Origin: Bugula neritina
Lineage: Eukaryota; Animalia; Bryozoa
Reading direction: 5' to 3'
Assembly (NCBI GenBank): GCA_964035545.1
Contig: OZ037768.1
Coordinates: forward strand, 15,731,875-15,795,874
Length of the DNA: 64,000 nt
In this document: positions 36,801 through 63,986 of the stretch, piece by piece
Numbering within the stretch: the first letter of the stretch is position 1
Layout of the letters: every line of letters begins with the position of its first letter
Notes under the pieces: generated by a model
What the model was told of the DNA's origin: nothing
The model's database searches: none
Seen by the model: the letters and a program-made list of their open reading frames with translations, nothing else
Translations under genes and position numbers: made by a program

Positions 36801-37361
36801 TTTCCCCTGCAGACTACAACGCTGATGAAACTGTAACATCATTAACGTACGGGTTTTCTACATTATTTTTTAGAAAATATTATTATATGTCAATTTTTTA
36901 ATTAGTAAGATCAGGGAGCAACCGTGGTCTAGGGATTAGAGCATTTGCCTAGTAAGCACGAGGTCATGGGTTCGAGCCCGGACAAAGGCTATTGGTGATG
37001 TTAGGAAGAGCATCCAGTCATAATTGCTTCTGTGCCTTATTTAAATAAGTCCTTAGCCCGCTTTAACAAAAACCTTTTCCATCAGGGGTTTCCCACAGGG
37101 ATAGTGACTATAAGCTTGCGTGAGTTTTTTTTAATTAGTGAGATCCTGAAACAATAATTTAATAGTATATTTAAAACTCCTATTACTAGTCTATACCAAC
37201 GGATTCTCTTCTATCTCACTTTATCTTACAGATACGCTTCCAGAGTGAAACTGATAACCAACGATGCCCAAAAGAACTCAGATAATAAGGAGATTGCCAG
37301 GTTGAAGGCTCTTGTGGCCAAGATGAAGGCAGGGGAAGCAGTTGATGAAGATGCTGATTAA
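15873..37361 (+). CDS. C-terminal-motor kinesin-14, KCBP/kinesin-C-like, with long coiled-coil stalk and C-terminal calmodulin-binding-type helix (~1513 aa, 32 core exons)
   Basis: Phase-consistent exons: 15873-16008, 16212-16315, 16527-16665, 17458-17607, 17961-18157, 18340-18447, 18894-19071, 19399-19620, 20044-20225, 21027-21167, 22161-22291, 22627-22810, 23065-23223, 24296-24421, 24873-25025, 25461-25583, 25895-25999, 26104-26208, 26311-26448, 27761-27886, 28231-28437, 29730-29868, 30231-30397, 30942-31040 (neck [20 protein letters not shown]), 31207-31341, 31626-31789 (P-loop GQTGSGKT), 32294-32387, 33846-33981, 34325-34416 (switch I SSRSH), 36345-36499 (switch II DLAGSE), 36730-36846, 37232-37361. 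Start codon and the first exons are less certain than the motor exons. Confidence 0.92.
24532..24861. repeat. 55-bp minisatellite, 6 copies, with 3+3 higher-order structure
   Basis: Unit GAAAGGTATATATTTAGGTGTATATTTAAGTACATAGATATAGCACGGTTCTATT; variant pattern of units 1-3 recurs in units 4-6. Confidence 0.95.
28470..28605. repeat. Degenerate ~26-bp minisatellite, ~5 copies
   Basis: TACCCCTATACACTGAGAGTATGGTG-like units. Confidence 0.75.
29040..29340 (-). mobile_element. Decayed mariner transposase fragment (HTH region to WVP motif)
   Basis: Frameshifted minus-strand peptides [50 protein letters not shown] and LCRWVSKQ follow the mariner order W..F..G...D.ER.GRP / SDRR.T / .S.G...I / WVP. 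Confidence 0.75.
30471..30681 (-). mobile_element. tRNA-derived SINE, copy 1
   Basis: Reverse complement of 36913-37125 with A/B boxes; flanked by a ~15-bp direct repeat AAAC(C/T)AATTACTTTA (30456-70, 30682-96). Confidence 0.85.
30780..30890. repeat. (TA)n microsatellite with GTCACATATATAT units
   Basis: Directly visible. Confidence 0.9.
34764..36098. mobile_element. Non-autonomous DNA transposon, Tc1/mariner-pogo-type (TA target)
   Basis: TIRs GGGGTAACGGGG.. / ..CCCCGTTACCCC, TA on both sides; internal GGGGCACAATGGG repeats (~35127, 35151, 35888) echo the TIR; no transposase ORF seen. Confidence 0.75.
36913..37125 (+). mobile_element. tRNA-derived SINE, copy 2
   Basis: A box TGGTCTAGGG, B box GGTTCGAGCCC, anticodon-like loop CTAGTAA (AGT), tRNA-unrelated body, T-rich tail; direct repeat TTAATTAGT(A/G)AGATC on both sides. 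Confidence 0.88.
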
Positions 37362-45100: not shown

Positions 45101-48100
45101 ATTAAATTTGATTAAATTATTAGCTACCAAGCCAGCTAGTTGCTTTTCAATTTAATCCCTAAATTTCAAAATTGTCGGTAAATTTTAACGCTACTTTCAA
45201 ATGCATAAAACTGCTGTCAAATTATAGAGAGCCAGTTTATTTTATTCAGATTACATTTAGACGAACATCTAAATAAACAGAAATGTTAAATTCACTATAT
45301 TTTGAATCATATTATAAATTAATTTTATCATTTTAAATTTTCAATTTTAAAATGGCAGTTTTGAGAGGCAAATTAAAATGACTGATTTTAGCTAGAATTG
45401 AGGTCTTCCATCACTTTAAGAAGCTTTTTATAAAAGAAATATACTCTTAAAATTATATTATCCAGTTTAAGTAAGGCCAAAATCAAGTGTAACTTTTTAA
45501 TAATGAAATTTAAAGTTATGCAAAATTTGTTAGCAAATTTCGCGATAAACTCAAACGAGGCTTGAAATTACGCAACTTCAAAGTTGATCGCCAAAGGGTT
45601 AAAATTGTCCTAATTTTGTAGCCATGGTATTCCATTGGTGGCTCTGCCTGGAGTCACTGATGTGTATCCTCCACAGAAGAAGTCATTCATGATGATGAAG
45701 TACTTGCATGATTATGGTGAGTCCATCAGTTTTAAGTACTCCCCACCCCCAACCAACACTGTGTTGTGTTAATCCAGCTTGTAATTTCTATTGAAAGGTA
45801 TTCTGGTCACTACAACATTCTTTTTGTTTCCTTACTTCATTCCGTGCTTCATTAATAACTGCTGTTGTTATATTATCCTATACTTTCTCACAAGCAGTCT
45901 TCTGGTTGGGTTATTGTGACATTATAGTCTACAGTCCACGACTTCACTTGGGTATAATCTAATGTCTCATCATCTCTTTTGCAACTGTTCTTACACTAAG
46001 TTTCCCTCTCCCCCTCTCTCTCATTTTCTGTTTGTCTTGATATTCCTGCTTCATTGGCTATAACCTTTGTTCACTAATGTCAAACCCCTTATCTCTTGAC
46101 AGATTTCATACATTTTTTACATTCCTCCAAGCTGTAAGTAACAGCCCTGGTGTCTTGTTTTAATACTTTCTGCTTAGTTGTTCCAGTAACAGGTTGATGA
46201 CCCTAGGGCCTAGGCTTTCTGGTCCTCCACATTCTTGCTGCCAATAAATCATGTCTAGTTTTGTTCTTTATACTGTAATTCATAGCAATCTAAACTGTTA
46301 ATTTTTTTCTGATTCAATAGAAATATTGCTAATATCCATACACAACTATTTTAATAATTGGTTTAATAAGTAGATTAGGGGTAAGCAAAATAACTAGTTA
46401 ATATGAAGGTATATTGTAGGCTTTTGGAATATTTAATTTTAAAATTATAAGTTTAGAACAGGCTAATGCTTTTTAGGAAGTAAAATTACCAACACTTTGC
46501 AGCATGAAACCTTTGTGATTGTTTCTAATAAAATAGTTTAGACTTTAGAGTGTAGGTATACCAGAGGGGGAGACCTGGTTCACGCCATGGAAGCTTCTAC
46601 CAAAACCGTATCAATAGGAAAACATGTTTTGAAATAAAAAAGGACGCAACTAATTTGCACTATACATAATATTACAGAGTTGAATATGTGTTGCCAGTGA
46701 AACAATTACATGGTAAATGAGTACTCAGACAGCATTAAGTTTCTGGAATCTTGGGAACTTCTTTGTTAGTTCTTTAACAGTTCTTTTCTTACTGACAAAT
46801 AAGTTTTCTTTTCTAGCTTTGCCAGTCTTAGTTAGGTAGTTACCACAATGTGCATATATAAACTAGTCCTGCATTAACTTTCACTAGCAACATCAAGTAG
46901 TTTCAATGATGACACAGTAGCTTCATTCATAAACTGCCTTGTGGATATTTTCAGACAACAAAGAGCGATTGTCTAACTAAAGTATATTTCTAATTACTTA
47001 TCTACATAATATTCACACAGCACAATTAATTGCATTTGTGTCACCTCTTCAGATATGAGCTCTAGAAATGCAGTGCCTAACTGTACCCCTATATCAGATA
47101 GGTTTCCATGTAGCTACTATATCAGATAGGTTTCCATGTAGCTACTATATCAGAATTTGGCCATGTTGTCCCTAAAAAACACATACATCAGATACAAAAT
47201 GGAAGTCCACGCCCTTCTGGTGACCTATGGAACTGGAACCATAAGATATAGACAGAGCAGTGTATATATAAATTGAAATGTTTATGTCTTGTGCTATTAT
47301 AATAAAATAGAATATTTTAACACATTATATATAAGCCTGCACGAGTGTTATATATATTTAACAGGGATAGACAAATACAGATATTTTATGAGAGTAGATG
47401 ATGATGTCTACGTGAATGGAGATAAACTTGATGCGTTTCTCAACTCCCTGAATTATAGCCAGGCTTTGTATATAGGTAATGGCTTCTCTTACACATGTCA
47501 CCCATCACGTGTGACTACTTGTACACTCCTCATATACCCACATATGGCTTCAAGATGCATAACTGGTCACTCATTACAATTACTTGCCAAAAAGTAAAAT
47601 AATTGTTAAATTCTAATGATTATTACTTCCAGAACACTGGACCAAATGTGTATAACCCTCCAATTTATGCACAGCTGCCCAATTAATCTCATGGACTCAC
47701 TTTGTTTTCACTCACTACTCTTTTGTCTACGCTGCCAATGATTATGCTATTCACCGTTTGAATGCTGACAAAACTTTTTCAAGGTTTTACTAATAGACTA
47801 CAATATTTTGGTATGCTGTGAAATAGTGTCTAATCAATCAGCAAGGTTAGAGTAAAGTACTGCATAGCTCAAGTTCCAATAGCTGGATGGTGTTGAAGTA
47901 GAGGTGCACAGTCTAGAGAGTGTAAGCACAAAATGCTTCTAACCTCAACACAATAGCATGTGTGTGACTTGCCTATTTTTCTCAACTCAATCATGTCACT
48001 AACACCAGTTACTGTAATTCAATAACAATTGTATAGTTATCCCCCTGCTTCAAACCAACATAGGGGCAGATAAATCCACAAGTAAAATAAACACCATGTT

Positions 48101-51100
48101 GATTTCTACTGTAAAGGTGATTTTCTTCTATGGTAGTAATATCAAGCACTGTATCACAAAATTGTAGAAGTATAGTAATCTAGTAAAGGCAAAAGTTGGC
48201 ATCCATTTTCCCATACTATCTCATAAATGTGATTATTATAAGATATTGAATTACTATTCAATAATTTCATGTATGAGTTAATCAAATTTCCCCTTCAGTT
48301 TGGTGTGAATGTGGCTGGTAGGTAATAAACTTAAATATTTTGGTTTATAATCTTCATAATTTTTTCTACGTTTCTAATGCAGACAAAAAACTTGATTCAA
48401 TTACAATGTCAATTATGAATATGTTATAGCTTATACTTTCTTATCTCTATCTACAGTGAGTTAGACACACAATATATCAGACATATGATATACCCTAAAC
48501 TAATTTATTGGGCCAGGGTAGAAGAGGATCACTTTCAATCGTGGAATTCAAAGAATGCTGATCAGAGTGGCAGAAAATGTTATTTATCTTACCAACTGAT
48601 TAAACTCTTGTTTAAGGGTGATCAGTGCTGCACACAGCACCTCACTTATATGTATCAAACTGGTTCTCGCTTTTTCACTGTTGCATGCATTACATTGCTC
48701 CCTGCTTCCTGCAGGTCAAGCTGGGACAGGCAAGAAAGAAGAAGTGGCTGAGCTGTCCCTCAACCCAGATGAGAACTTCTGTATGGGTGGTCCTGGTGTG
48801 GTGGTGACTGGGGAGACATTGAGGAGGGTAATCCCCCACATCAGTTACTGTCTGCAGCATCTCCTCTCCACACACGAGGACATCGAACTTGGCAGATGCA
48901 TCAGAATGTTTGCAGGAATCCCTTGCACTTGGAATTATGAGGTAAACTCTATAACTTACTAGTTTGTGCTTTATGTCCGACTTTATCACATTTTGTTAAA
49001 AATATTTCGGCCTTCACACATGCTATCTTGTGCAATACTGGCTCAGTTCAATTTAGAAATTGTCATCTCATTATTTTGGGTAATTTTCAACTATTTTTTC
49101 TATTATACTGTTTGTGTTTACCAAAACTTACTAGCAGGGGAAGGGTTGGTTTGCAAACAGCTATTGATCAGTTTTATAGCTCAAATTGCTTTCTGCTGCA
49201 TCTATCCAGTTATATGGTTCATCAAGTTTGATGTTTCAAAACCTCTACACCCCATTGTCTTGTGGTGTTTTATAGCCTTAGCTATTTACAGGGCACATTG
49301 TGAATATAATTGTGTAGAATCCTGCAGGTATTTCATTTCCAGCATTCTGTAATTTAATAGTAATTCTGCTGTAATAAAATATAACTTGGGCTGCTAAAAC
49401 TTGACCATATGCAGTGTTCTTTGAGATACCTGTTTTCGAATGTAAATTAAGTTACTAACTATAGAAATATTCAATGTAAATGCTCTTACTTTTCACTATG
49501 AAGAGCTTTTCTTTCACTGGCTATCAAACATAAAATTTCACACACATATCCAAATTGATTCAGTCGCATTTTCATGCTGCTAAATATTTGGTGTGAAATA
49601 ATTGCCACTTCAACTGTGAAATGGTATACAAGGAAGAAGTTACTTAGGATAATAGCCAATGTGATGAAATTTGCCTAAAGGACTGAAATTTATAATTATA
49701 TTGGAAATTATAAAAAATTATGCTACAACGAGTGACTGCTATTCAACATGTAGGCTTTATAAAAATATTAACAATATAAAGCGTGGAATTGAAATATAGG
49801 TTAATATACCAACTCCTATTACTGCTAGAGTTTTTGTTGGTAATATTCATATTTATGTACCCATGTCAAACTGTAAAGAGCTTTTTATGTTTTTATAAAC
49901 AACATTGGTTGAGATATATACTCCTAAATGTTTTACAATGTATTTATATCACGTATAATATTGAGATATTACCTCATCATTTGTACCATTTGTGGAAAAA
50001 AGTAAACAACAATACATACACACAGAGATTATTTCCAACTTGTACAGCAGTTGTATATACACTATATATTGCCCACAATGACTGTACAATATTTTGTAAA
50101 ACAATCAGTTTGTAACAACATTTGTTGTGTTCAGATGCAGGTGCTGTTTTATCACAGTTATACGCATGCTACAAACTCCCATGTCTTTCCACATGATCTC
50201 ACAGGACCTGAATTAGACCGAGCTATAACACTGCATCCCATTAAAGTGCCCTCAGTGATGTACCACGTAAGCCAGTATATCCTATGTCTTTTCTGCTTAT
50301 AGTGCTTTTGGTGAATCACAAATATAGACCCAAGCTAGTGTTGAAATGAACATATTTTTGATAGACATCATAATTTGAAATAATGTGGATATAGAAACAA
50401 CAAAAGCTTGCTATCACTCGACTGTTGAAGTAACGAAGTTAACTTTACTGATGTGTAGCCTGTGAATAGACCAACTAGGCCCCTCCAGTGTAAACAGGCT
50501 AACTAGACCCCCCCCCCCCCTTCTCTTCTTCAAACAGGCTAACCTGACTTGGTAAATGTAAAAATAAATAAATAAGTTTGTGCTATGCTATGTTTAAAAC
50601 AGCAAATATCTTGTTTGCTTTTATAATGTATTATATACAAGTTATTATTAACCTTTAGGTTCACAATGAAATTCTGATAAGAAAAAGAGCCAAGTTAGAG
50701 CTACAGAAGATTGAGTTAAAAAGAGAAATAACAGAACTGGATACTTTCCTTGGTAATCAATGTTTTTATTTACTTGCCCTAACTATAGATGTATTTCAAC
50801 ATTGATTTCATTTTAACTTGTGTGGAAATTGGTTATACACATAACCTGGCTAACATCAACATTGACTTCAACTGTAACCCCCTATTCACACTTACCGTAT
50901 CGTACACCGTAACAGCAAATATCAGCCATTTTTACAAACTCCTATTTGACAGAAAAACTTTTGCGTTAATTCATTGGATATAATTGTCCAATGAAGTGTC
51001 ATAGATCGTACCTAATAGCGGACTTTGAAAACTTCAGCCCGGGCACATTAAAAATGGCTGATATTTGCTGTTACGGCGTACAATACGGTAAGTGTGAATA

Positions 51101-52445
51101 GGGGGTTAAGCATGTTGTATATTCACAGAAAAAAAGAGAAAACTCTATTTGTTTTCAAGTTATAAACAAATTTGTGATTTATGATACCTTTGGTTAATAT
51201 CGGCACATTTCAAAGTTTACTATTCATTTATTGCTTTCTGCTAATCAGTGTTGGTGGAATAATTTCCCGTTAACAGACTCACCAAAAGAAGGCTTAGACA
51301 AAGTGCAAGCATCTGTGGAACCGAGTGACTTTGACTTCTTGCCATGGGTTTTCATCACAAGCAAGAGCCAAATAGCCCACAACATGTTTAGTGTCAAGAG
51401 AAACCATGAAAGATCATGGAAGCAGGTTTTAGACAGAGCTTTAGACTTGGCAGTTAACCAGCTGAATGAAAATGCCATGTCTGATGGAAGACTACTAGAT
51501 CAGCCTGAAATAGTATACGGTTATCGGAGGTTTCATCCACTCAGTGGCATTCAACTCAAGTTAAATGTAAAGTTTCGCTGCTTGAAATTTCATGGAAAAT
51601 CTTCTAAATCGTACATATCAAAATATATAGAGCTGGGAGCCCATCTAAGCTCCCCTGAAATTAGAAAAGTCGCTTTGAAAAGTAATGACATTGTCCACCT
51701 AATCTTACCATTGAGTGGGAAATTAAAAGAGTTTAAAAGATTTCTTTCCCAGTTTGAAGAAGTTTGTAAAAGCAAGGACTCTTGTGTGTTATTACTGGTT
51801 TTATACAAGAGTTCATCGTACCTTGAAACTATCACCAGCGTCAGTCAAAGCTTGTTAAAACACAAGATACGAATTTTGCGAGTTCACGGGACCTTTAACA
51901 GAGCTGTTGCTCTGCATAATGGTGTCATGGCTGTTGATGACACTGAGCTGGTGATGTTTGTTGATGTTGACATACATCTCAATGTTGCCGCTCTTCTCAG
52001 AGTCAAGGCAAATACTAGACTCAGATCTCAGGCTTATTTTCCTATCGTTTTCAATCAATACGACAGCAAGCTTACATGTGGAGCTAACTCCTGTCCTGTA
52101 GATAACCAGACCCCTGAAGATGGTAATTTCAGGTTCTTTGGGTTTGGTATAGCATCTATGTATAAAGCTGATTATGTGTCAAGTGGCGGGTTTGATTTAA
52201 ACATACGGGGCTGGGGCAAGGAAGATGTGGACTTGTACAGTAAAATGTTGAAGACGAATACAACTGTATTCAGAGCTGCTGACCCTGGGATAGTACATAT
52301 CTATCATCCTAAAATATGTGACTCAACTCTCAATGCTGAGCAAACAGTCATGTGTGTAAATAGTAAGGCAGCATCATTTGCATCTCAGCATAAACTAGCT
52401 CAACTTTATTTCAACTCTAGACACAAAAGCAACTTGACGCTATAG
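42192..52445 (+). CDS. CHSY1: Chondroitin sulfate synthase 1-like glycosyltransferase (~719 aa, 8 coding exons)
   Basis: Exons 42192-42398 (type II anchor ALTGLAGGILCGFILCLW; in-frame upstream ATG at 42102), 43613-43737 (IGVMTA..VWQTWAK), 45622-45716 (YPPQKKSFMM), 47365-47475 (FMRVDDDVY), 48715-48941 (FCMGGPG..THEDIELGRC), 50135-50266, 50659-50752, 51277-52445 (FVDVD, YFPIVF, GGFDLNIRGWGKEDVDLY). All phases join. Paralog assignment (CHSY1 vs CHSY3) is nominal for an invertebrate. Confidence 0.93.
44909..45598. mobile_element. piggyBac-type MITE
   Basis: TTAA on both sides (44905-08, 45599-602); TIRs CCCTTACGCGATCAA / TTGATCGCCAAAGGG (13/15); subterminal direct repeat GATCAATGGACCATATATG x2. 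Confidence 0.85.
47089..47153. repeat. 28-bp tandem duplication
   Basis: TATATCAGATAGGTTTCCATGTAGCTAC x2 plus a partial copy. Confidence 0.8.
50876..51107. mobile_element. ~230-bp MITE with ~60-bp TIRs (Harbinger-like termini)
   Basis: CCCCCTATTCACACTTACCGTATCGTACACCGTAACAGCAAATATCAGCCATTTTTA is mirrored with ~2 mismatches at ~51049-51105; TAA/TTA flanks (TSD ambiguous). Confidence 0.85.
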
Positions 52446-54655: not shown

Positions 54656-55066
54656 TGTAGTGAATTTTGCCAGTTCACTATTATTATTTGTGGGTCTACT
54701 TAATCAAAGCCACTGCGACAGGTTGTTTACGATAAGATACTTTTATTATTTACACAAATACAAGAAGGTTATTTACTGCTAGCATGAATAGAAAACGATT
54801 ACATAATTAGTGAGCTTCAATACACAACTGTTCTAAAAGAAGTCCCAAGCTGCTCTGCCGGTTAGCTACTCAGCGCACTGCAACTACGAGTAGCTAGCTC
54901 CACCTGCTATCAATTAGTGTCACTGTCCTGATTGGTGGCTACTAATGGTGCCACTACTGTCCATAGTTACACTCCGACAGTGTCGAACTCACAAGATACA
55001 TAAAACAGTATAGAGTAAACCTTTTCGATTAATCTAATAGGAATTGCACTACTAAAATCTATCACA
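54656..55066 (-). repeat. Putative 3' LTR of element B (~411 bp)
   Basis: On minus strand: TG start after a polypurine tract, CCAAT (~54931), AATAAA (~54742), CA end at 54656, flanked by ATAT. Boundaries cannot be confirmed without the partner LTR. Confidence 0.55.
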
Positions 55067-55190
55067 CTCTCCTCGCCTATCGAAAAGTACTCTCTAGACT
55101 TAATATTTACATGACAGTAACACACGAATAATAATGAGGGTAACATAGTGCTTTACAAAACTGAGGGTACAATTGAACAAGAGAAAATAT

Positions 55191-55497
55191 TGTGGTGGTT
55201 CGTGGAACTACCAGCAGCACAACATGTAGGGTCGCGTAATTGACCCGGAACAATGGATAGCCAATTAGCGTAGTTGATAGTTAGCAGCAATTGTAGTTTC
55301 CCGCTGCTAACTCAGTCGAAGCTAGAGTGTGAAATAGATTAGATGTGTAACTTGTTTGGAAATAATGTATCGTGTTTTTATAATGTATAGTTGTGTATAA
55401 AATATACTCGTTCACTCGACTTATCCTGGTGCAGCTCTATAGTAGATAAATAGACTCTCTGGATAGCACATCAACCCTAAATCTGAAAATCTTAACA
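55191..55497 (+). repeat. 5' LTR of element A
   Basis: TGTGGTGG...CTTAACA; direct repeat of 62392-62698. Confidence 0.97.
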
Positions 55498-55498
55498 G

Positions 55499-55516
55499 TG
55501 GTGGCAGCGGTGGGAT
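55499..55516 (+). other. Primer-binding site, tRNA-Leu
   Basis: TGGTGGCAGCGGTGGGAT, 1 nt after the LTR, complementary to the 3' 18 nt of animal tRNA-Leu(AAG/TAG-type) ...AUCCCACCGCUGCCACCA. Confidence 0.9.
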
Positions 55517-55528
55517 AGTGCATCCAAG

Positions 55529-56482
55529 ATGGAGACTGAAAATGCTGGAACTCAACCACCGGCAATCGAAGGTGAGCGTAGAGACAATGCTGTAGAGACA
55601 ATGCCTGTTAACCATGTAGTAGAAGAGCGAAGGGTTCCGCGAGAACTAGCTGAAGACCGCTACAGGTTAAAGGCGCCCACCTTCACGGGTGAAGAGGAGG
55701 TGGAACAATTTATCCAAGAGTTTAGCGACGTAATGGACGTCGCTCAGTGGCCCCCTAGGGTGGCCCTGCTGAAGCTTAGAATGGCATTGATGGACAAAGC
55801 CAAGCCCTATGGGCTGGGCGCAGACATTGATAATATCTTTGCTTCTCTGCGGGCCCGCTTTGGCCTCTCTGCTACAGATGCCAGGGCCCGATTGCAGAGG
55901 TTGCGGCGTGATCCCCGCACCCCGCTGCGGGAGCATGCCGCCGCGGTCATGAAGCTGGCACAGATCGCGTACAGCGACTTGCCCCCAGTCAACCGCGAGA
56001 GGTACACCCTCGACGCTTTCATAGCATCTGTCGACGATCTGGGTCTCCACCACCAGTTTCTAGCTAGGGGAGTCACCACCGTTGAAGATGCTCTGACTGA
56101 GGGGGAAGCTTACCTCCTAGCTAATCAAATGCATAAAAGTCGCGGAAGCTCCCGCCAAGTGGAGATAGACCGCGCAGACACGGCCGCGGGACAAGGGGAA
56201 GAAACCCCCGCCGCGGCTGCCGTGTCCCAGTTGGCGACGGCATCAAAAGTCACTCAACTGACGGACATGCTAGCCAAGCTGATAGCAACACTGACACCAC
56301 AAAACCCAGTGAGTACCGCCCCTGAGCCCATGCGGCCATCGGCGCCGCCACAGGGAGAAACAGTCAGTTTTTGCTGGGAGTGCGGAAATCAAGGACATTT
56401 CCGCCGATATTGTCCCTTCCTAAATCAGGGGTTAAACTACCGCGGCCCGCAGATGTTCCCACCTTCCGCGGGCCGACGATGA
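55529..56482 (+). CDS. gag: Gag (capsid + CCHC nucleocapsid knuckle), 317 aa
   Basis: ATG just after the PBS; PTFTG..F..F....W capsid-type motif; CWECGNQGHFRRYC zinc knuckle. Confidence 0.93.
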   Translation: METENAGTQPPAIEGERRDNAVETMPVNHVVEERRVPRELAEDRYRLKAPTFTGEEEVEQFIQEFSDVMDVAQWPPRVALLKLRMALMDKAKPYGLGADIDNIFASLRARFGLSATDARARLQRLRRDPRTPLREHAAAVMKLAQIAYSDLPPVNRERYTLDAFIASVDDLGLHHQFLARGVTTVEDALTEGEAYLLANQMHKSRGSSRQVEIDRADTAAGQGEETPAAAAVSQLATASKVTQLTDMLAKLIATLTPQNPVSTAPEPMRPSAPPQGETVSFCWECGNQGHFRRYCPFLNQGLNYRGPQMFPPSAGRR

Positions 56483-59400
56483 AACCTCTAGGGAAGAAGA
56501 AACGCAGGTCACCCAGACGGGTACCGCGTACTGGCAACCAACAGTGGCAACAGCCACGACGGACCAGCAAGGGGCTTCGCCCCGCGGCTGCCTTTTCTAT
56601 GCCCCTTCACAACAGATTCACAGGGCTACAAGTCCAAGAATCTGGATGGGAGCACACAAAGGTAGCTGAGAATCTAGCCTCGGCACCCCCGAGGCCTACC
56701 TATCACCGCCCCAAGAGACCTCCTTCGCGACCCAAAGCGAGGGAGGTACTCCCTGCGAGAGTAAGGCCTGAAGGGAGAGTTCAGGTGCAGCCCCATGAGA
56801 ACAGCTATTTCTTGCCCGGTAAACTGGAAGGCAAAGCTGTTACTTTTCTCATTGATTCGGGCTGTACCACAAACCTCTTAAGCCGCCAACTCTTCGACAC
56901 CCTCAGCGCTAGGGTCAGGGGCGAGATGGAAGCATACGAAGGGGAATACGGCACCCTAGCTGACGGGTCGTGCCTTCCCTTCTATGGTATAATTGAGCTG
57001 ACGGGACGAGTCCGCGATCAAACGATCCAAGAGACATTCATCGTCAGTCAGCTCAAGGAGGATGCTATCCTCGGGATGCCGTTCCTTAAACGGCACGGAT
57101 GTCACATAGATTTTAGCAGATCTGCAATGATGATGTCCGGGCGAGAACTCGCCTGCGTCGACAAGTTCGGCCGCCCTTTAGTGGGAGGTGTGCAAGTGGT
57201 ACGCAACCGTACCATACCAGGCCGCTCCCGGGCTACCATTCACTGCAGGGTGAATAGTAGCCGGATCTCTGGACTCGGGGTGGTTGAAGGCGCGCACGAA
57301 AAGATCCAACTTGCCAGCAGTCTGAATCAGCTGACTGAGCAAGGGGAGATCTTAGTGCAGTGCGTCAACCCCTTTACCGAGCCTATCAAGCTCCCGGCTG
57401 GGTCGATGCTGGGCCGTTTTCACTCTGTTCAGGAGGGAGACGTAGGCCCGTCGCTGGGTGATGCGACAGAGGCACTCCCTCGACACCCTATTCAGGGACG
57501 AGGGGCAGTCCCAACACATCTCCGGGAGTTATATGAAACAGCCAGTGGCGGCTGCGCGAGTAACCGGGAACGCCAAGCTATGGCTAAGTTACTACGCGAC
57601 TACGGTGATGTGTTCAGCAGCGGGGAGCATGACGTGGGACTGACTGGAATTGTCAGACACGAAATACCGCTGACTGCAGGGACAGTCCCTGTCCGGCAGC
57701 CCACCCGCAGGCTGGGGCCGGAGAAAGAGAAGGAGGTTAGCCGACAAGTACGGGATCTTCTGGACCGGGGACTGATAGAGCCCGCCCATAGTGCGTGGAG
57801 CTCGCCAGTCGTACTGGTCCGGAAGAAAGACGGCAGTTGGCGGTTCTGTGTGGACTACCGCAAACTCAATAGCGTAACCATACAGGACGCCTACCCTCTA
57901 CCTCGTATTGACGAGTCATTGGACGCCCTAGCCGGCAGCAAGTACTTCAGTACGTTAGACTTGCTAAGCGGCTATTGGCAAGTTCCTCTGAGTCCCGACG
58001 CCCAGGAGAAAGCGGCGTTTATCACACGGGACGGTTTGTGGAAGTGGAAGGTGCTGCCCTTCGGGTTAACCTCCGCCCCAGCCACCTTCCAGAGGCTGAT
58101 GGAACAAGTCCTTAGCGGACTCCATTGGAAGACACTGCTGGTCTACCTCGATGATGTCATCGTAATCTCTCCAGACTTCGAGACACATGTCAGTCGTCTG
58201 CAGGAGGTTTTCGAGAGACTCCGAGGTGCCGGTCTTAAGCTCAAACCTTCCAAGTGCGCTCTATTGCAGCCGGAGGTCAAGTACCTGGGGCACGTTGTCG
58301 GTCGAAACGGCGTGGCAACGGATCCCGAAAAGGTACGGGCGGTAGAAGACTGGGTCACCCCCCAAGACTTGACCGAACTCCGGGCTTTCTTGGGGCTGGT
58401 AGGGTATTACAGGCAATACATACCAGACTTTGCGGGCATAGCCCAGCCGTTAAACCGGCTCACCGCAAAGGGAGTGACGTGGCAGTGGACTCCAGTCGAA
58501 CAAGAAGCGTTCGACCGCCTCAAGGGCTGCCTACTAACGGCGCCCATCTTGGCCTACCCAGACCCCACTCTGGAGTACATCCTTGACACGGACGCCAGTG
58601 ACCAGAATGTTGGCGCTGTGCTGTCACAAGTGCAGGAAGGCCAAGAGGTAGTAGTAGCCTACTACAGCAAGTCTCTCTCACCCGCTGAACGAAATTACTG
58701 CACTACCCGCAAGGAGCTGCTGGCAGTAATCAAGTCAGTGAAGCACTTCAGACCATACCTATATGGCAGGAAGTTCCGGCTGCGTACGGATCATGCCTCG
58801 CTGATCTGGTTGTGCAGGAGAGCAGAGCCCTCTAGTCAGGTCGCTCGGTGGCTCGAAATCCTAGCTGAATTCTCGTACCGGATCGAACACCGACCGGGCA
58901 AGAGACACAGCAATGCGGATGGGTTGAGTCGCCGACCTGACGGAGGTTGCAAACAGTGTCTCAACATCGAGAGGAGGGATGGAGGTCCCCCACGATGCGA
59001 GTTGGAGACGCTGGCTCATCACGGAGCACCGTTTGATTGGGATCAAGGTCAACTCAGGCAAAGAGTTGATGAGTCCCCGGAGGATGTACAAAACCTCCGC
59101 GCCAACCCTGTACTGGCTGGTAATGTTCGAGAGCTGAAGAAGCTCCAAGAAGAGCTGCCTGGAGTCGTGGCAGACATATACCGGGCCAAAAGGGAAGGGC
59201 GACGACCCAGCGAGGAACGCATACGACAGGGATGCGCCGAGTTCCGGCTATACTGTCAGCGTTGGGACTCGCTGCGGATCGGGCAGGATGGGTTGCTAAC
59301 CATCTCTCTAGCTGCCAGCGGCAGACACCCGGAAAGGAAGAGGGTAGTCTGCCCCACAGCCATCCGCCGTGAGTTGATTTGGGATACTCACAAGCAGGCC

Positions 59401-61002
59401 CACGCAGGGGTCAAGCGAGTGATGTCCAAATTACGACTTCGGTGGTATTGGCCACAAATGGAGCGTGATGTCCGGCTCAGAGTCAAACAGTGTGAGATCT
59501 GCCAGGCCAGTAAGCATAGCCGCCCCCCTGGTGAAGCAGGACGGCGGAGGCTATACGCTGGTAGGCCCTGGCAAGTAGTCGCTGTAGACCTGGTCGGACC
59601 CATGCCCCTGACCCCCAGAGGCAATAATTGGATCCTAGTACTAACCGACCACTTTACTAGGTGGGCGGATGCTCTGGCTATCCCAGACGCATCAGCCCCA
59701 ACAGTGGCCAGGGCACTAGACCAACACGTATTCTGTTATTTTGGGCTCCCCGAACAGATACACTCTGATCAAGGCGCTCAATTCCAGTCTCAACTGATGA
59801 GCGACCTTTGCCGCCTCTGGGGAGTAAATCAGAGCAGGACCACCCCCTACCACCCTCAAGGTAACGGGGTGGTGGAGCGCAACAACCGGATGCTAGGTGA
59901 TGCACTCCGGAGTCTCCTCCTTGGACGAGGTCAAGAGGAATGGGATACGGTGTTGCCGCAAGTCATGCGTGCATACCGTAGCACCCCACACACCAGTACT
60001 GGTGAGACCCCAAACCTCTTGATGCTCGGGAGAGAGACTCGTGTCCCCGACCATCTCACCTATCACGTTCCAGAGCAAGATAACTCAGTCCACGAGTATG
60101 CCAGTGAACTAGTGGAACGGATGAAGGCCGCACACGAGATACTGCGCCAACAGCAGTGGAAGGTGCGGCACGAAGATTCCGATGAACCACCCCTCTATCA
60201 GAGGGGAGATAAGGTGTGGATGGTCAATTACCGTAGGCGCCGCGGACAGGCTGATAAGCTGAAGCCTAAGTTCGTAGGCCCCTACGTGGTTGTCGAGGCT
60301 ATGCCCAATCATACGTACAAGATTGAGCGCTCAGGACAGGTGTCTATCCAGAATGAGTCTCGCTTGAAACCGTATTGGGCTAGCCCCGGCGGAGTGGGAG
60401 AAGCCCCCCCGTTGTTAGAGCTCAGGAGGCAGACAACAACGCGCGGGCGACGGCGGCATGGACCTGAATACGAAGTGGTCATACCGCGGGAGGAAAACTT
60501 GGTGAGAGAGGAGCGGCAGCTTTTGTCAACAGAAGCGTGTCCGCCACCGCCAAGTCTAATTCCATCACTTCCAGAAACCGAGCCGGTTCCGGAAGTGCAA
60601 ACCCCCACGGAGGGAGGGGCTCCATCCGGAGAACAAGAAGAGGTGACTGCTGACGGTGAAGTAGAGACGCCATTAGAGGCCCCTACTAACGAACCGGCAA
60701 GCGTGTCACCCCCCCTAGAAAGGGGACAGCGTACGAGGCAACCCCCCGCATACTTGAAGGACTTCGTATGTGACTGCGTTAAAAGCGGCACGCATGGAAG
60801 TCTAGGGGAAAACCGTACGAGAAAAGAATCGAGCAAATGTGGGAGTTGTCAACACCACGGAAATATCAACTTTTGCATCGGCGGAAATAGAAATAAAATT
60901 CATCCGCCGGGTGCACAAAGTCTTAATCACGCACCCCAACCACGTTGCTCGATCTTTTCATACGCTGATGCAGTCAGGAGTAGACGTGTTTCTAAGCAGT
61001 AG
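56371..61002 (+). CDS. pol: Pol polyprotein (protease, RT, RNase H, integrase), -1 frame relative to gag
   Basis: FLIDSG protease; RFCVDYRKLN, LPFGL, YLDD RT; DTDAS..TDH..ADGLSR RNase H; H..H..CEIC, VAVD..HSDQG..VERNN integrase; KFVGPY GPY/F motif. The ORF-track start is not an ATG. Confidence 0.97.
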   Translation: MLGVRKSRTFPPILSLPKSGVKLPRPADVPTFRGPTMKPLGKKKRRSPRRVPRTGNQQWQQPRRTSKGLRPAAAFSMPLHNRFTGLQVQESGWEHTKVAENLASAPPRPTYHRPKRPPSRPKAREVLPARVRPEGRVQVQPHENSYFLPGKLEGKAVTFLIDSGCTTNLLSRQLFDTLSARVRGEMEAYEGEYGTLADGSCLPFYGIIELTGRVRDQTIQETFIVSQLKEDAILGMPFLKRHGCHIDFSRSAMMMSGRELACVDKFGRPLVGGVQVVRNRTIPGRSRATIHCRVNSSRISGLGVVEGAHEKIQLASSLNQLTEQGEILVQCVNPFTEPIKLPAGSMLGRFHSVQEGDVGPSLGDATEALPRHPIQGRGAVPTHLRELYETASGGCASNRERQAMAKLLRDYGDVFSSGEHDVGLTGIVRHEIPLTAGTVPVRQPTRRLGPEKEKEVSRQVRDLLDRGLIEPAHSAWSSPVVLVRKKDGSWRFCVDYRKLNSVTIQDAYPLPRIDESLDALAGSKYFSTLDLLSGYWQVPLSPDAQEKAAFITRDGLWKWKVLPFGLTSAPATFQRLMEQVLSGLHWKTLLVYLDDVIVISPDFETHVSRLQEVFERLRGAGLKLKPSKCALLQPEVKYLGHVVGRNGVATDPEKVRAVEDWVTPQDLTELRAFLGLVGYYRQYIPDFAGIAQPLNRLTAKGVTWQWTPVEQEAFDRLKGCLLTAPILAYPDPTLEYILDTDASDQNVGAVLSQVQEGQEVVVAYYSKSLSPAERNYCTTRKELLAVIKSVKHFRPYLYGRKFRLRTDHASLIWLCRRAEPSSQVARWLEILAEFSYRIEHRPGKRHSNADGLSRRPDGGCKQCLNIERRDGGPPRCELETLAHHGAPFDWDQGQLRQRVDESPEDVQNLRANPVLAGNVRELKKLQEELPGVVADIYRAKREGRRPSEERIRQGCAEFRLYCQRWDSLRIGQDGLLTISLAASGRHPERKRVVCPTAIRRELIWDTHKQAHAGVKRVMSKLRLRWYWPQMERDVRLRVKQCEICQASKHSRPPGEAGRRRLYAGRPWQVVAVDLVGPMPLTPRGNNWILVLTDHFTRWADALAIPDASAPTVARALDQHVFCYFGLPEQIHSDQGAQFQSQLMSDLCRLWGVNQSRTTPYHPQGNGVVERNNRMLGDALRSLLLGRGQEEWDTVLPQVMRAYRSTPHTSTGETPNLLMLGRETRVPDHLTYHVPEQDNSVHEYASELVERMKAAHEILRQQQWKVRHEDSDEPPLYQRGDKVWMVNYRRRRGQADKLKPKFVGPYVVVEAMPNHTYKIERSGQVSIQNESRLKPYWASPGGVGEAPPLLELRRQTTTRGRRRHGPEYEVVIPREENLVREERQLLSTEACPPPPSLIPSLPETEPVPEVQTPTEGGAPSGEQEEVTADGEVETPLEAPTNEPASVSPPLERGQRTRQPPAYLKDFVCDCVKSGTHGSLGENRTRKESSKCGSCQHHGNINFCIGGNRNKIHPPGAQSLNHAPQPRCSIFSYADAVRSRRVSKQ
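56431..56495 (+). other. Candidate -1 ribosomal frameshift signal
   Basis: G_TTA_AAC in the gag frame, 5-nt spacer, 8-bp all-GC stem 56443-50/56468-75; loop TTCCC can pair with GGGAA at 56491-95. Confidence 0.75.
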
Positions 61003-61026
61003 TTCAAACCATTTCACACATTCAGT

Positions 61027-62104
61027 ATGTCTTACGACAACAGATCGTGGGGTGAGTTAACTATATCTTAATACGAAACTAGATTGCATCGCTCAGCTCT
61101 GACTCACTGAGTCAATCGAGCTGGAGATAGGTTAGTGAAATACCGTAGTAAGAACTCAGTTTGACTTAGAGATTTTTATAATCTCATTGCAATACGTGTT
61201 CTATCTGACTATTCACTACCATAAATCTCTACGAGGTAACTGAATTAGGAGTTGCCAAGCTGTTCAAGCTGACAACACAGCAGTGTACTGTATTAACACT
61301 GTTGAAACTTTTTCAGATTACACTCGACCCGCTACAACCAGGGTACGGGATAGAACACTTCCCGCTCCGTATCCAGAGGAGTATGCTAGTGGTGACCGGC
61401 CTGAGCCACTACGCCGCCGTTGGCGGTGGGTGTCTCCACAAACAGAAGAAGAAATAGAAACAGCCTGGGGGTCCAGAGGATGGACGAGATGCCAGATCTG
61501 TGGTGAAGATTGCGCCTCTCACCGCTCCCTTAAACTACACGTCAATGCTCATCTCCTACTGACATTCTGCCCCTGCGGGTACAATGATGTGTATCCCTAC
61601 CCCATCACCAGACACAGAGCGGCGGGCTGTTTCCCTGGAGAAAACTACGTGGTCGACGCTAAGCTATACCCGGAGTTCCTCGCACTTATACGACCTCTGG
61701 TGAAGAAGGCCATGCTATTAGCCGTTCTGTCCTCGGGGTTCCAACGTGTGTTAGACAACGCCCGCCAACAATCCCCGTTGGTGTCTGACCGTCCTCAAAT
61801 TACATACACCCCCGAGGAAATTACAGATCCAGAAGAAGGAGAGATCTCCCCTACACCGGCGAAGAGACGAACCAGGTCCCCCAGTCCACCCTTGCGCCGC
61901 AGACGGACACCGTCCCCAGACCCAGTACGCCTGGCTACAGTAGAAGAACGCCTCCTACGATTACAAGAAGAGTTCACCCAGCTGGCACCAGATCTACTTA
62001 ACACTACCACAGGACTCTTCCAGCTAAAGGGATCCGTATGCCGTATGAAACGGAAACTGCGTACATGCCAAGCCAAGCACCGGCGTGCCCAACAAGGACT
62101 CTAG
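61027..62104 (+). CDS. Element A ORF3: predicted two-exon (61027-61051 + 61317-62104), 270-aa zinc-finger / Arg-Ser-Pro / coiled-coil protein
   Basis: ATG TCT ... TGG G|GTGAGT donor and TTTTTCAG|AT acceptor join in phase 1 (MSYDNRSW-D-YTRP...); CQIC-x12-H-x3-H then FCPCG..H..C; no signal peptide or TM segment. Confidence 0.8.
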
Positions 62105-62391
62105 TTAGACTACCCGGAGTACTCCAACTCCGCCTCTTGGGAGAAGCCCAGATGTCATGTAAATGTTTGACTGCTTAACAGGTTATCCCCTGTCTAACAC
62201 CACAGCTAGCTAGTATTCCTCGTCTATCTACAGCTGGCCAATTGTATGCAACGGATCGTTATAATGACTCTGTCTATTATTATGTCTCTTCCTGTATATT
62301 ATGTATTATTTTGTCCACTGATGTATGCAATTACTATTGAATGTTTTTTTATATATATATCAGAAAGATGGCTTTCTGCTGGTGGGGGCGG

Positions 62392-62698
62392 TGTGGTGGT
62401 TCGTGGAACTACCAGCAGCACAACATGTAGGGTCGCGTAATTGACCCGGAACAATGGATAGCCAATTAGCGTAGTTGATAGTTAGCAGCAATTGTAGTTT
62501 CCCGCTGCTAACTCAGTCGAAGCTAGAGTGTGAAATAGATTAGATGTGTAACTTGTTTGGAAATAATGTATCGTGTTGTTATAATGTATAGTTGTGTATA
62601 AAATATACTCGTTCACTCGACTTATCCTGGTGCAGTTCTATAGTAGATAAATAGACTCTCTGGATAGCACATCAACCCTAAATCTGAAAATCTTAACA
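62392..62698 (+). repeat. 3' LTR of element A
   Basis: 305/307 identical to the 5' LTR; preceded by GGTGGGGGCGG (imperfect PPT). Confidence 0.97.
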
Positions 62699-62821
62699 AT
62701 ATATATACAGAGTAGATAACATAAGTATAATAAATGAGTCTTCACGCCGTAGTCCATAACACTTATTTACACTGCTTGACTAGCCAGGAGGGGGGGGGTA
62801 CATGTGTAGGTGGCCGCACCT

Positions 62822-63986
62822 CTAGCACTTCTTCGCCAGCCGTTTCTCTAGTCGGGTCTGCAACTTAGCCAGCTCGGTGGTTGCTCGCTTCTGTTCTTTA
62901 CTGAGGCGAGCCATACGCCGTTGCACTTTCCTAATGTCGGCTAGTAGGGATTGGTCAGGGTCGCTGTCATCTCGGGGTGTGTTGGGGTACATAGGAGATT
63001 GTCGTCGTTGGGGGTTGTGAGTCCTTCGTCACAGCGCGTCCAGCACGGGTTACTACGACGCGTAGAGGTTGGGTGGTTACGTCTGGAGGGTAGGTAATCG
63101 TTGTTTCGGAGGGTTGGGGGTCTGCATCAGAGTCACTCTCTACTGTAGGTCGGGTAGCGGGGAAGTGGTCCAGGAGAGTCTGTCGTCGGTCCGGGTCAGT
63201 CACGTGGGGTAGTATTAGGTCCCGGAACTCCGTGTAAGAGTCTGCGTCGACTTCATACAAGTGCCCTACGTAACAGTCTCTAGTTCGTTGGTGTCTCAGT
63301 ATCGTGTCCCTGCAGAAGTGGTGAACTCCGCAGGGACAGAAAGTCACAGTAAAGTGTTGTGGAACGTGTATTCTCAGTCTCCTAGTAGTCGATAGTATTC
63401 TTCTACATTCAGTGCATTGTCTATTGTCGTCCGTCCCTACTATTGCTTCTATCAATGTTCGAGTCCGTCGAGTCGTCCAGTTAGTCCGTCCCAGTAAGGC
63501 TCTTGGTAGTGCTAGAGTAGTGTCCTTGGCTACAGTCAAGTCATCAGTCAAGTCGTTGGTATCAATTTGCATCGCAGTGTGTGTCGGGGAGTCCGTAAAT
63601 GTTGCTAAATGTATGTCGGACAGCATGTCTACCCCTGCTTCTGACATGCTGTCCCAGTTAGTCGTAGGTGTGTCAAGTAATGCCTGTATCTCGTCGGATA
63701 CAGGCTCAGTCTCACCTGCAATAGAGTATTTAAATTTAATTACACTCTATGCGTGGGACTCCCGTTCCAAACAATATTAAATAATCGAGTCTCACTGTCA
63801 CTCACTGATCGTGTAATCAGCTGAGTCGACTGTCCCACTCTAATTATCAATATCATTCGCTGTCAGGAGTTTCAACTTTATCATTATGACAAAGTGAGAC
63901 TGCTGTCGCTACCAGAATAAATTCTAATTAATTATTATAGAATTCCTAGTAGACTTACCCCCCAAAACAGTTGCTGCATTAGACAT
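62822..63986 (-). CDS. Element B ORF3 homologue, predicted two exons (63986-63959 + from 63715); main frame stops at 62967, coiled-coil tail continues in a shifted frame to 62822
   Basis: MSNAATVLG-G|GTAAGT ... TTGCAG|GT joins in phase 1; CTEC-x12-H-x3-H-x4-FCPCG..RH..C..Y.VDA..Y.EF..LI.P.V aligns with element A ORF3. Confidence 0.78.

What the first reader, a model, noticed from the sequence alone, without database searches (positions are those of the whole stretch)
61027..62104. Non-envelope zinc-finger/coiled-coil accessory gene in the env position, shared by two diverged LTR retrotransposons
Seen: after the pol stop, element A encodes CQICGEDCASHRSLKLHVNAHLLLTFCPCGYNDVYPYPITRHRAAGCFPGENYVVDAKLYPEFLALIRPLV; element B (63416-63200, minus) encodes CTECRRILSTTRRLRIHVPQHFTVTFCPCGVHHFCRDTILRHQRTRDCYVGHLYEVDADSYTEFRDLILPHV. 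All putative ligands (C-x2-C-x12-H-x3-H, then CPCG..H..C) and a Y.VDA..Y.EF..LI.P.V tail are conserved while flanks and LTRs show no evident similarity. Both continue with an acidic/Pro linker, an Arg/SP patch and a C-terminal coiled coil. Known: third ORFs of Ty3/gypsy errantiviruses are Env glycoproteins with signal peptide and TM; these have neither. Inference: a conserved family of nuclear, nucleic-acid-binding, oligomerising accessory proteins (transactivator, splicing/export regulator, anti-silencing or targeting factor). I do not recognise it as a described family.
Basis: partly seen in the sequence, partly recalled or inferred. Interest (0 to 1): 0.92.

Follow-up and report, generated by a model that had tools for sequence, protein, structure and literature searches.

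The report
Zinc-finger third gene in retrotransposons
A young jumping gene of the gypsy type in a marine animal carries, where its relatives often carry an envelope gene, a conserved gene for a two-zinc-finger, coiled-coil protein of a family that we found in no domain library, which likely lets the element switch on its own expression, much as complex retroviruses do.

Summary
Real, and larger than first seen. Element A (55191-62698) is a complete, young Ty3/gypsy element (LTRs differ at 2 positions). After pol it carries a non-envelope third gene, probably spliced (ATG mini-exon, phase-1 intron, main exon 61317-62104). B's copy has the same exon layout but a broken frame; B's pol lies outside the window, so B is an LTR element by inference only, with A nested in its 3' end. 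The conserved unit is a ~120-aa domain (AlphaFold pLDDT 95.5): two packed C2H2-type fingers wrapped by helices, below every Pfam cut-off, with no whole-domain fold match. It recurs in 139 protein clusters (E<=1e-10), typically with acidic N-terminus, basic patch and coiled coil. In one distant relative it is fused in frame behind a gypsy integrase; it also occurs in real bryozoan host genes (4 of 30 clusters looked up). Best guess: nuclear DNA/chromatin-binding activator of the element (0.4); rivals: CERV/Rev-like RNA export (0.3), integration tethering (0.15). Function untested. Precedents for the kind exist (CERV, foamy-virus Tas); the family was not found in eight literature searches. The scan had not noted it on other DNA.

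The parts
55191..55497 (+). Element A 5' LTR (TG..CA)
   Evidence: 2 mismatches to the 3' LTR
55279..55312 (.). Perfect inverted repeat in A's LTR (10-bp arms, 14-nt spacer); candidate site for a dimeric factor, untested
   Evidence: 1 of 300 shuffles
55499..55516 (+). Primer-binding site (complement ends in CCA; tRNA-Leu assignment is recalled, not from a call)
55529..56482 (+). gag with one CCHC knuckle; predicted phase-1 splice donor after codon 14 (GT at 55572), in frame with the third-gene acceptor
56326..61002 (+). pol: protease, RT, RNase H, integrase with SH3-like tail; ends at a stop
61027..61051 (+). Predicted ATG mini-exon of A's third gene (8 codons + 1 nt), itself preceded by an acceptor-like site ending at 61025
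   Evidence: same layout in B; 11 of 1119 acceptor-like sites in the window show this arrangement
61052..61316 (+). Predicted 265-nt phase-1 intron (GTGAGT ... TTTTTCAG)
   Evidence: no contig joins across it in four runs
61317..62104 (+). Main exon of A's third gene, open to its stop
   Evidence: 65 relatives
61412..61780 (+). Double zinc-finger domain: W-helix, C2H2 finger (61490-61552), CxC-H-C/H finger (61568-61630), strand and three helices
   Evidence: (pLDDT 95.5, pTM 0.87)
61862..61918 (+). Arg/Ser-Pro patch, specific to A and its closest relatives
61940..62095 (+). Predicted C-terminal coiled coil with basic end; most conserved part of the A family
   Evidence: (helix 177-228)
62381..62391 (+). 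G-rich polypurine tract
62392..62698 (+). Element A 3' LTR, followed by the ATAT target duplication (62699-62702; partner 55187-55190)
63959..63986 (-). Predicted ATG mini-exon of B's third gene (9 codons + 1 nt)
   Evidence: relative P0068 has this peptide joined in frame to the main exon
63716..63958 (-). Predicted 243-nt phase-1 intron of B (GTAAGT ... TATTGCAG), strongly folded
   Evidence: z -6.4, 0 of 200 shuffles
62967..63715 (-). Main exon of B's third gene with the same domain (about 63490-63200); frame broken at its end
   Evidence: (44 relatives)
62822..62966 (-). Out-of-frame remainder of B's gene with the coiled coil
54700..55077 (-). Candidate purine tract (55077-55067) and 3' LTR of B starting TG at 55066; far end not fixed; holds a 9-bp inverted repeat at 54863-54896
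   Evidence: repeat-like depth and a contig that joins B's 3' region without A

Best explanation
Element A is an intact gypsy retrotransposon whose third gene, likely made from a spliced RNA, encodes a predicted two-zinc-finger domain plus coiled coil that most likely acts in the nucleus as a DNA- or chromatin-binding activator of the element's own expression. Shown: the gene, its place between pol and the 3' LTR, region-wise conservation, family size, in-frame fusion behind integrase in a distant relative, presence in host genes. Predicted: splicing from an ATG mini-exon or from the gag leader into one conserved acceptor; the fold; the coiled coil. Inferred: the small spliced mRNA is made first, the protein enters the nucleus by its basic cluster, self-associates through the coiled coil, binds the LTR or internal DNA through the finger pair, and recruits co-activators through the acidic-hydrophobic N-terminal region (or, in the A subfamily that lacks it, through the highly conserved coiled coil), giving positive feedback or relief from silencing in the manner of foamy-virus Tas or plant VANC. 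In the integrase-fused branch the same module would also travel with Pol.
For: Transcription-factor-like anatomy across the family: activation-domain-like acidic/hydrophobic tiles N-terminal to the domain in 20 of 51 non-redundant members vs 2.2 expected from whole-protein shuffles and 10.2 from shuffling only that region; 3 of 39 C-terminal regions; none in Pol (the tile rule is recalled from the literature, not from a call). Basic clusters 37 of 55 vs 15.7 and heptads 38 of 55 vs 2.4. The only recurring structural matches are DNA-binding tandem C2H2 pairs, e.g. Kaiso Z 3.9, rmsd 2.9 over 57 residues, SALL4 Z 3.7, rmsd 3.0 over 51; the family profile matches C2H2 fingers of transcription factors over finger 1. 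Finger-1 helix keeps K/R at +2, +3, +5 in 86, 59 and 80% of 98 rows. Leucine-rich export-signal patterns are not enriched (14 of 55 vs 19.3 expected). Each LTR has a perfect inverted repeat spanning 34 nt (1 and 11 of 300 shuffles). The domain is used in bryozoan host genes and is tandemly doubled in three separate proteins. Precedent: Tas is a DNA-binding activator encoded 3' of pol (PMC8670036, passages).
Against: No binding, location or expression data. Structural Z-scores are in the range of unrelated hits. A's own subfamily nearly lacks acidic tiles (2 of 66 proteins; B family 8 of 45). Helix residues stay conserved although A's and B's LTRs are unrelated, and position +6 is hydrophobic in 81% of rows, which fits backbone or protein binding as well as base reading. 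The two LTR inverted repeats share no clear motif. The gag-pol RNA is pervasively folded while the third-gene exon is not, which points to RNA-level control. No contig shows A's splice; one low-depth variant lacks the donor G (table 7).
Confidence: 0.4

Rival explanations
1. Rev/CERV-like switch: the protein, made from the spliced RNA, binds the folded unspliced genomic RNA, multimerises on it and promotes its export or blocks its splicing.
For: Strong donors and acceptors inside the genome create a retention problem. All 23 windows from 55691 to 61440 are over-folded (mean z -3.15 vs dinucleotide shuffles; 22 of 22 gag/pol windows z<=-1.6 vs synonymous-codon shuffles) while LTRs and the main exon are near zero, so the folded part matches the predicted large intron. 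B's intron z -6.4. Same-superfamily precedent CERV: spliced, Cys finger, leucine zipper, basic signal, one exon in frame with the polyprotein (PMC10309623, abstract, passages, section 15). A has an Arg/Ser-Pro patch.
Against: No export-signal enrichment; Arg/Ser-Pro patch not conserved (11 of 55 vs 5.0 expected); A's short intron (z -2.85) is no more folded than the rest of gag-pol; no Rfam match; acidic N-termini and host-gene use fit a transcription factor better.
Confidence: 0.3
2. Integration-site tether: the finger pair binds chromatin or a DNA motif and steers the integrase, covalently in the fused branch and through the coiled coil in the split branch, as chromodomains or PHD fingers do behind other integrases.
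For: P0260 (1460 aa) is RNase H-integrase, 51% identical to A's Pol over 723 columns, with the domain in frame behind the integrase tail; P0212 and P0244/P0257/P0258 carry the integrase tail motif in frame upstream; the three fall on one side of a 98/82 branch. A is inserted inside another element with the same gene. PHD/OTU/Ulp1 domains follow gypsy-like integrases in Ginger1 (PMC2836005, passages).
Against: In A pol ends at a stop and the gene has its own start and intron. In P0260 about 350 low-complexity residues separate tail and domain, and a sister protein (P0243) starts at a Met inside that stretch, so the shared frame may hide a separately expressed gene. One nested insertion is no evidence of targeting.
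Confidence: 0.15
3. Captured host zinc-finger gene with another or minor role (decoy against host repressors, RNA chaperone, benefit to the host), not a regulator of the element.
For: Genuine host genes with the domain exist in Bugula neritina and Watersipora subatra and share an extra N-terminal motif; host rows need at least 2 origins on the tree; genomic context is unknown for most of the family.
Against: Retention with region-wise conservation over many element subfamilies and on both sides of the tree's main split implies selection at element level; a pure passenger would decay.
Confidence: 0.15

Closest known systems
CERV of Cer1 (C. elegans Ty3/gypsy element; PMC10309623)
   Same: Non-envelope accessory protein of an LTR retrotransposon from a spliced RNA; Cys finger, zipper, basic signal; part of it in frame with the polyprotein.
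   Different: CERV is 517 aa, shares gag exons, has a candidate C4 loop and a G-protein-like domain, and per the paper has no obvious homologue outside nematodes; this protein has two C2H2-type fingers in a ~120-aa domain and lies wholly 3' of pol. Sequences were not compared directly.
Foamy-virus Tas/Bel-1 (PMC8670036)
   Same: Accessory gene 3' of pol, DNA-binding activator of the element's promoters (the role proposed here).
   Different: Vertebrate retrovirus with env; driven by an internal promoter (not tested here); no sequence link tested.
Non-env ORF3s of bdelloid LTR elements (GDSL esterase, DEDDy exonuclease, TM, coiled-coil; PMC5408684)
   Same: Third ORF in the env position, typically from spliced messages, captured host-like modules.
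   Different: No zinc-finger type appears in the passages read (0 occurrences of 'zinc' in the main text).
VANC anti-silencing proteins of VANDAL DNA transposons (PMC5735166, abstract)
   Same: Transposon-encoded accessory protein acting on its own family's DNA.
   Different: Plant DNA transposons; targets form tandem repeats, which A lacks at 40 nt or more.
Integrase C-terminal add-ons (chromodomain; PHD/OTU/Ulp1 in Ginger1; PMC6338049, PMC2836005)
   Same: Extra domain in frame behind a gypsy-type integrase (P0260 branch).
   Different: Different domain; in A and B it is a separate intron-containing gene.
Classical tandem C2H2 transcription factors (Kaiso, SALL4, HIC2)
   Same: Finger 1 has canonical spacing; the two fingers superimpose loosely on DNA-binding pairs.
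   Different: Five-residue linker, CxC knuckle and H..C/H end in finger 2, conserved hydrophobic +6, and a helical wrap with no match in solved structures.

Membership tests
Ty3/gypsy LTR retrotransposon (element A) | Two TG..CA LTRs, PBS, PPT, target duplication | tested here: met
Ty3/gypsy LTR retrotransposon (element A) | pol order protease-RT-RNase H-integrase | tested here: met
Ty3/gypsy LTR retrotransposon (element A) | Placement in a named clade on an RT tree | not tested
   no reference RT set available; viral-contig scan with the RT region found no relative
Ty3/gypsy LTR retrotransposon (element B) | pol and paired LTRs | tested here: inconclusive
   pol and 5' LTR lie outside the window; candidate PPT and 3' LTR, contig joint without A; no whole genome held
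Errantivirus Env | Signal peptide, ectodomain, transmembrane anchor | tested here: not met
   hydropathy maxima 1.64 and 0.74; soluble zinc-finger fold; no env family in Pfam scans
Classical C2H2 finger (PF00096) | C-x2-C-x12-H-x3-H spacing with hydrophobic core | tested here: met
Classical C2H2 finger (PF00096) | Pfam curated score | tested here: not met
   13.1 bits vs 25.2 for A, none for B; only the two-domain P0128 (PF13894, 27.7 vs 27) and the unrelated poly-finger P0238 pass a cut-off, of 52
Classical C2H2 finger (PF00096) | Sequence-specific DNA binding | not testable with these tools
   needs binding assays
CERV / Rev-like export factor | Made from a spliced RNA of the element | tested here: inconclusive
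   in-frame splice sites, intron-less relatives P0068 and P0019; no joint for A
CERV / Rev-like export factor | Leucine-rich export signal | tested here: inconclusive
   pattern not enriched, 14 of 55 vs 19.3; a regex is a weak test
CERV family proper | H, M (C4 loop) and G domains, exons shared with gag | tested here: not met
   different ligand pattern and size, no G-like fold among matches against the paper's description; no direct sequence comparison
Tas-like transactivator | Internal promoter and activation of LTR through bound DNA elements | not testable with these tools
   only anatomy and candidate inverted repeats
Integrase-fused targeting domain | In frame behind integrase | tested here: inconclusive
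   met in P0260, P0212, P0244; not met in A (stop at 61002)
Any solved fold for the whole domain | Significant whole-domain structural match | tested here: inconclusive
   best Z 3.9; no Foldseek hit at E<=0.001

The most novel reading that the evidence does not exclude
A large, old lineage of envelope-less gypsy elements in bryozoans independently became 'complex' retroelements: they encode their own zinc-finger regulator of a new domain family, which toggles between a separately spliced gene and an integrase-fused module, works with a genome whose unspliced-only part is folded end to end, and has been exchanged with host genes more than once.
Probability: 0.4. Interest if true: 0.85.

Novelty: new variant of a known kind. 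Interest (0 to 1): 0.66.

Why it matters
Simple LTR retrotransposons are thought to rely on host factors for their control; among the papers read, only CERV shows a self-encoded regulator in an animal Ty3/gypsy element. A second, unrelated, multi-subfamily case with a confidently predicted, undescribed double-finger domain would show that regulatory complexity arose repeatedly outside retroviruses. It gives direct tests (LTR reporter, intron-containing reporter, ChIP vs CLIP), a new zinc-finger scaffold, and a case of domain traffic between elements and host genes in a little-studied phylum.

Tried and rejected
No whole genome held, so copy context and dN/dS could not be computed; listed contig variants are too few (3 of 4 synonymous in the domain, 1 of 6 in the N-terminal linker; lists truncated by the tool). 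Context scans gave almost nothing: viral contigs none or one chance match (49); metagenome contigs 23 pattern matches, 1 true member on a 1.6-kb contig without pol; prokaryote genomes none (54) and 14 matches with no convincing member (57, 68). The search for longer fused forms found none among 7984 candidates, yet P0260 exists, so that blank is uninformative. ESM Atlas: generic C2H2 clusters under 0.9; a second query did not complete. PDB sequence search for A alone: nothing at E<0.001. First, shallow model pLDDT 67 and its fold search uninformative. Whole-domain fold searches: no significant match; this does not prove a new fold. Homodimer prediction: no answer. An RRE-like element specific to A's short intron was rejected because all of gag-pol folds as strongly. 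Shared motifs between the two introns or LTRs: not above chance. Rfam: none. RNA run X4 covers part of the exon with contigs only, which cannot show transcription. The chance test returned False for B only because B lies under 350 nt from the window end. Earlier scan notes: nothing relevant.

Full report
Observation. The quoted peptides are present and homologous (39% over 84 aa, E 8e-15); the ligand pattern occurs at exactly these two sites in the window and in 0 of 100 shuffles. Element A is complete and young: LTRs 55191-55497 and 62392-62698 with 2 mismatches, ATAT duplication, PBS, PPT, gag, and a pol with protease, RT, RNase H and integrase ending at 61002. No env is present. For B only the 3' part is in the window: a purine tract and TG start at 55066 on the minus strand mark a candidate 3' LTR, and a contig of run X1 joins 55185 to 62698, skipping A, so A is nested in B's 3' region in opposite orientation. 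B's pol was not seen, and no genome is held. B's frame stops at 62967, ahead of the coiled coil that intact relatives carry.

Gene structure. Both copies show an ATG mini-exon (A 61027-61051, B 63986-63959), a consensus donor, a 265- or 243-nt intron and an acceptor, all phase 1 and in frame. Only 11 of 1119 acceptor-like sites in the window show such an arrangement. Relative P0068 has B's mini-exon peptide joined directly to the main exon, and P0019 has a 14-residue leader joined exactly at A's acceptor position; A's gag has a phase-1 donor after 14 codons, so a gag-leader splice is a second possible route. Against: no contig of four runs joins across A's intron, and one low-depth variant lacks the donor G. 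Splicing is therefore likely, not shown for A.

Family. 65 relatives of A's protein among 3125 candidates and 44 of B's among 947, none named or with a Pfam domain. A 17-row profile found 338 clusters at E<=0.001, 139 at 1e-10 and 39 at 1e-30; only the best 150 were seen, and at least one (P0238) is an unrelated poly-finger protein, so the tail is impure. Of 263 proteins held, 218 match a core profile, 157 over its full length, 97 non-redundant at 80%. Conservation is region-wise: A family domain 64%, linker 33%, coiled coil 81% (30 rows; 8 of 38 rows left out as near-identical, fragmentary or from the other family); B family domain 82%, flanks 58-61% (19 of 26 rows). That indicates purifying selection; dN/dS itself could not be run.

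Domain. With 98 rows AlphaFold gives one compact 123-residue domain (pLDDT 95.5, pTM 0.87): a W-[VI]-[ST]-x-x-T helix, a canonical C2H2 finger, a five-residue link, a second finger with a CxC knuckle ending H..C/H, a strand and three helices. All ligands but the last are 96-100% conserved; the last Cys is 78%. Pfam gives sub-threshold C2H2 hits to finger 1 only (29 of 98 members at E<=0.1). Structure searches give only loose overlaps with DNA-binding finger pairs (best Z 3.9, rmsd 2.9, 57 residues; none at E<=0.001). Typical members add an acidic N-terminal region (activation-domain-like tiles in 20 of 51 vs 2.2 or 10.2 expected by two shuffles; rule recalled), a basic cluster (37 of 55 vs 15.7) and a heptad repeat (38 of 55 vs 2.4); export-signal patterns are not enriched. 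A's subfamily nearly lacks the acidic tiles (2 of 66).

Context beyond the window. P0260 (1460 aa) is RNase H-integrase, 51% identical to A's Pol, with the domain in frame behind the integrase tail; P0212 and the P0244 cluster carry the tail motif in frame. On a 100-row tree (98 columns, many forks unresolved) A and B lie on one side of a 99/91 branch and the integrase-linked rows on the other, with host rows between, so the link to gypsy pol spans the family. Of 30 clusters looked up, 4 carry organism names, all bryozoan: Watersipora subatra (two) and Bugula neritina (two, adjacent locus tags); three of these share an extra N-terminal motif and look like true host genes. The window's own host was not determined. 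Direction of transfer is unresolved.

RNA. All 23 windows from 55691 to 61440 fold better than shuffles (mean z -3.15), the 7 other windows of A do not (-1.0 to +1.3), and 20 host windows scatter from -3.3 to +1.5; synonymous-codon shuffles agree (pol mean -3.7; third-gene exon -1.3, +0.1, +0.9). The folded part coincides with what a gag-leader splice would remove.

Mechanism. I commit to a nuclear DNA/chromatin-binding activator of the element (0.4) on anatomy, fold neighbours, lack of export signals, host-gene use and LTR inverted repeats. A CERV/Rev-like export role (0.3) is favoured by the splice sites, the folded genome and the precedent; integration tethering (0.15) by the fusions; another role for a captured host gene (0.15). 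All functional steps are inferred.

Literature. Eight searches listed no paper describing this family. Read: PMC10309623 (abstract, passages, section 15), PMC5408684, PMC13524379, PMC13326412, PMC2836005, PMC8670036 (passages), PMC6338049 (first of four parts), PMC5735166 (abstract). No supplements were read; Repbase, Dfam, GyDB and subscription journals were not searchable and may hold an annotation. Recalled, not from calls: the tRNA-Leu assignment, the activation-tile rule, and a likeness of the second finger to the CxC finger of plant IDD and animal ASCIZ proteins.

Verdict. A real, selected, apparently undescribed accessory-domain family of gypsy elements: a new variant of a known kind. 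Interest 0.66.

Noticed in passing
window 55691-61440 (+): The whole gag-pol RNA of element A is over-folded against dinucleotide and synonymous-codon shuffles, while its LTRs and third-gene exon are not; a genome-scale ordered structure whose limits match the predicted large intron.
   Followed up: partly
window 55279-55312 and 54863-54896: Each LTR holds one perfect inverted repeat spanning exactly 34 nt (1 and 11 of 300 shuffles); arms differ between the two.
   Followed up: partly
window 63716-63958 (-) and 61052-61316 (+): In both predicted introns a hairpin lies at the 3' splice site; A's intron has two opposed TGACTCA sites at 61100 and 61108.
   Followed up: partly
P0248/P0110, P0259, P0128: Three separate proteins carry two tandem copies of the domain, the copies pairing within each protein on the tree.
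   Followed up: partly
P0254, P0259 (Bugula), P0174 (Watersipora): Host genes with the domain share an unannotated N-terminal motif of about 40 residues.
   Followed up: partly
P0019, P0068: Unnamed contigs (5.3 and 1.5 kb) encode intron-less forms; they may be transcripts or retrocopies of the spliced RNA.
   Followed up: no
window 51198-52445 (+): Exon of a host chondroitin N-acetylgalactosaminyltransferase gene (PF05679, E 8e-91), 2.3 kb from the nested elements.
   Followed up: no
window 50875-51108; 30493-30694 with 36900-37102; 10699-10968 with 45163-45441: Inverted-repeat pairs, probably MITE or DNA-transposon ends.
   Followed up: no
window 24477-24916, 6587-6785, 4111-4242, 28470-28599: Minisatellites with periods 55, 22, 28 and 26 nt.
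   Followed up: no
L020:133-1414: A distant member on a 1.6-kb metagenome contig: acidic repeat-rich ORF followed by the domain in another frame; no pol within the contig.
   Followed up: partly
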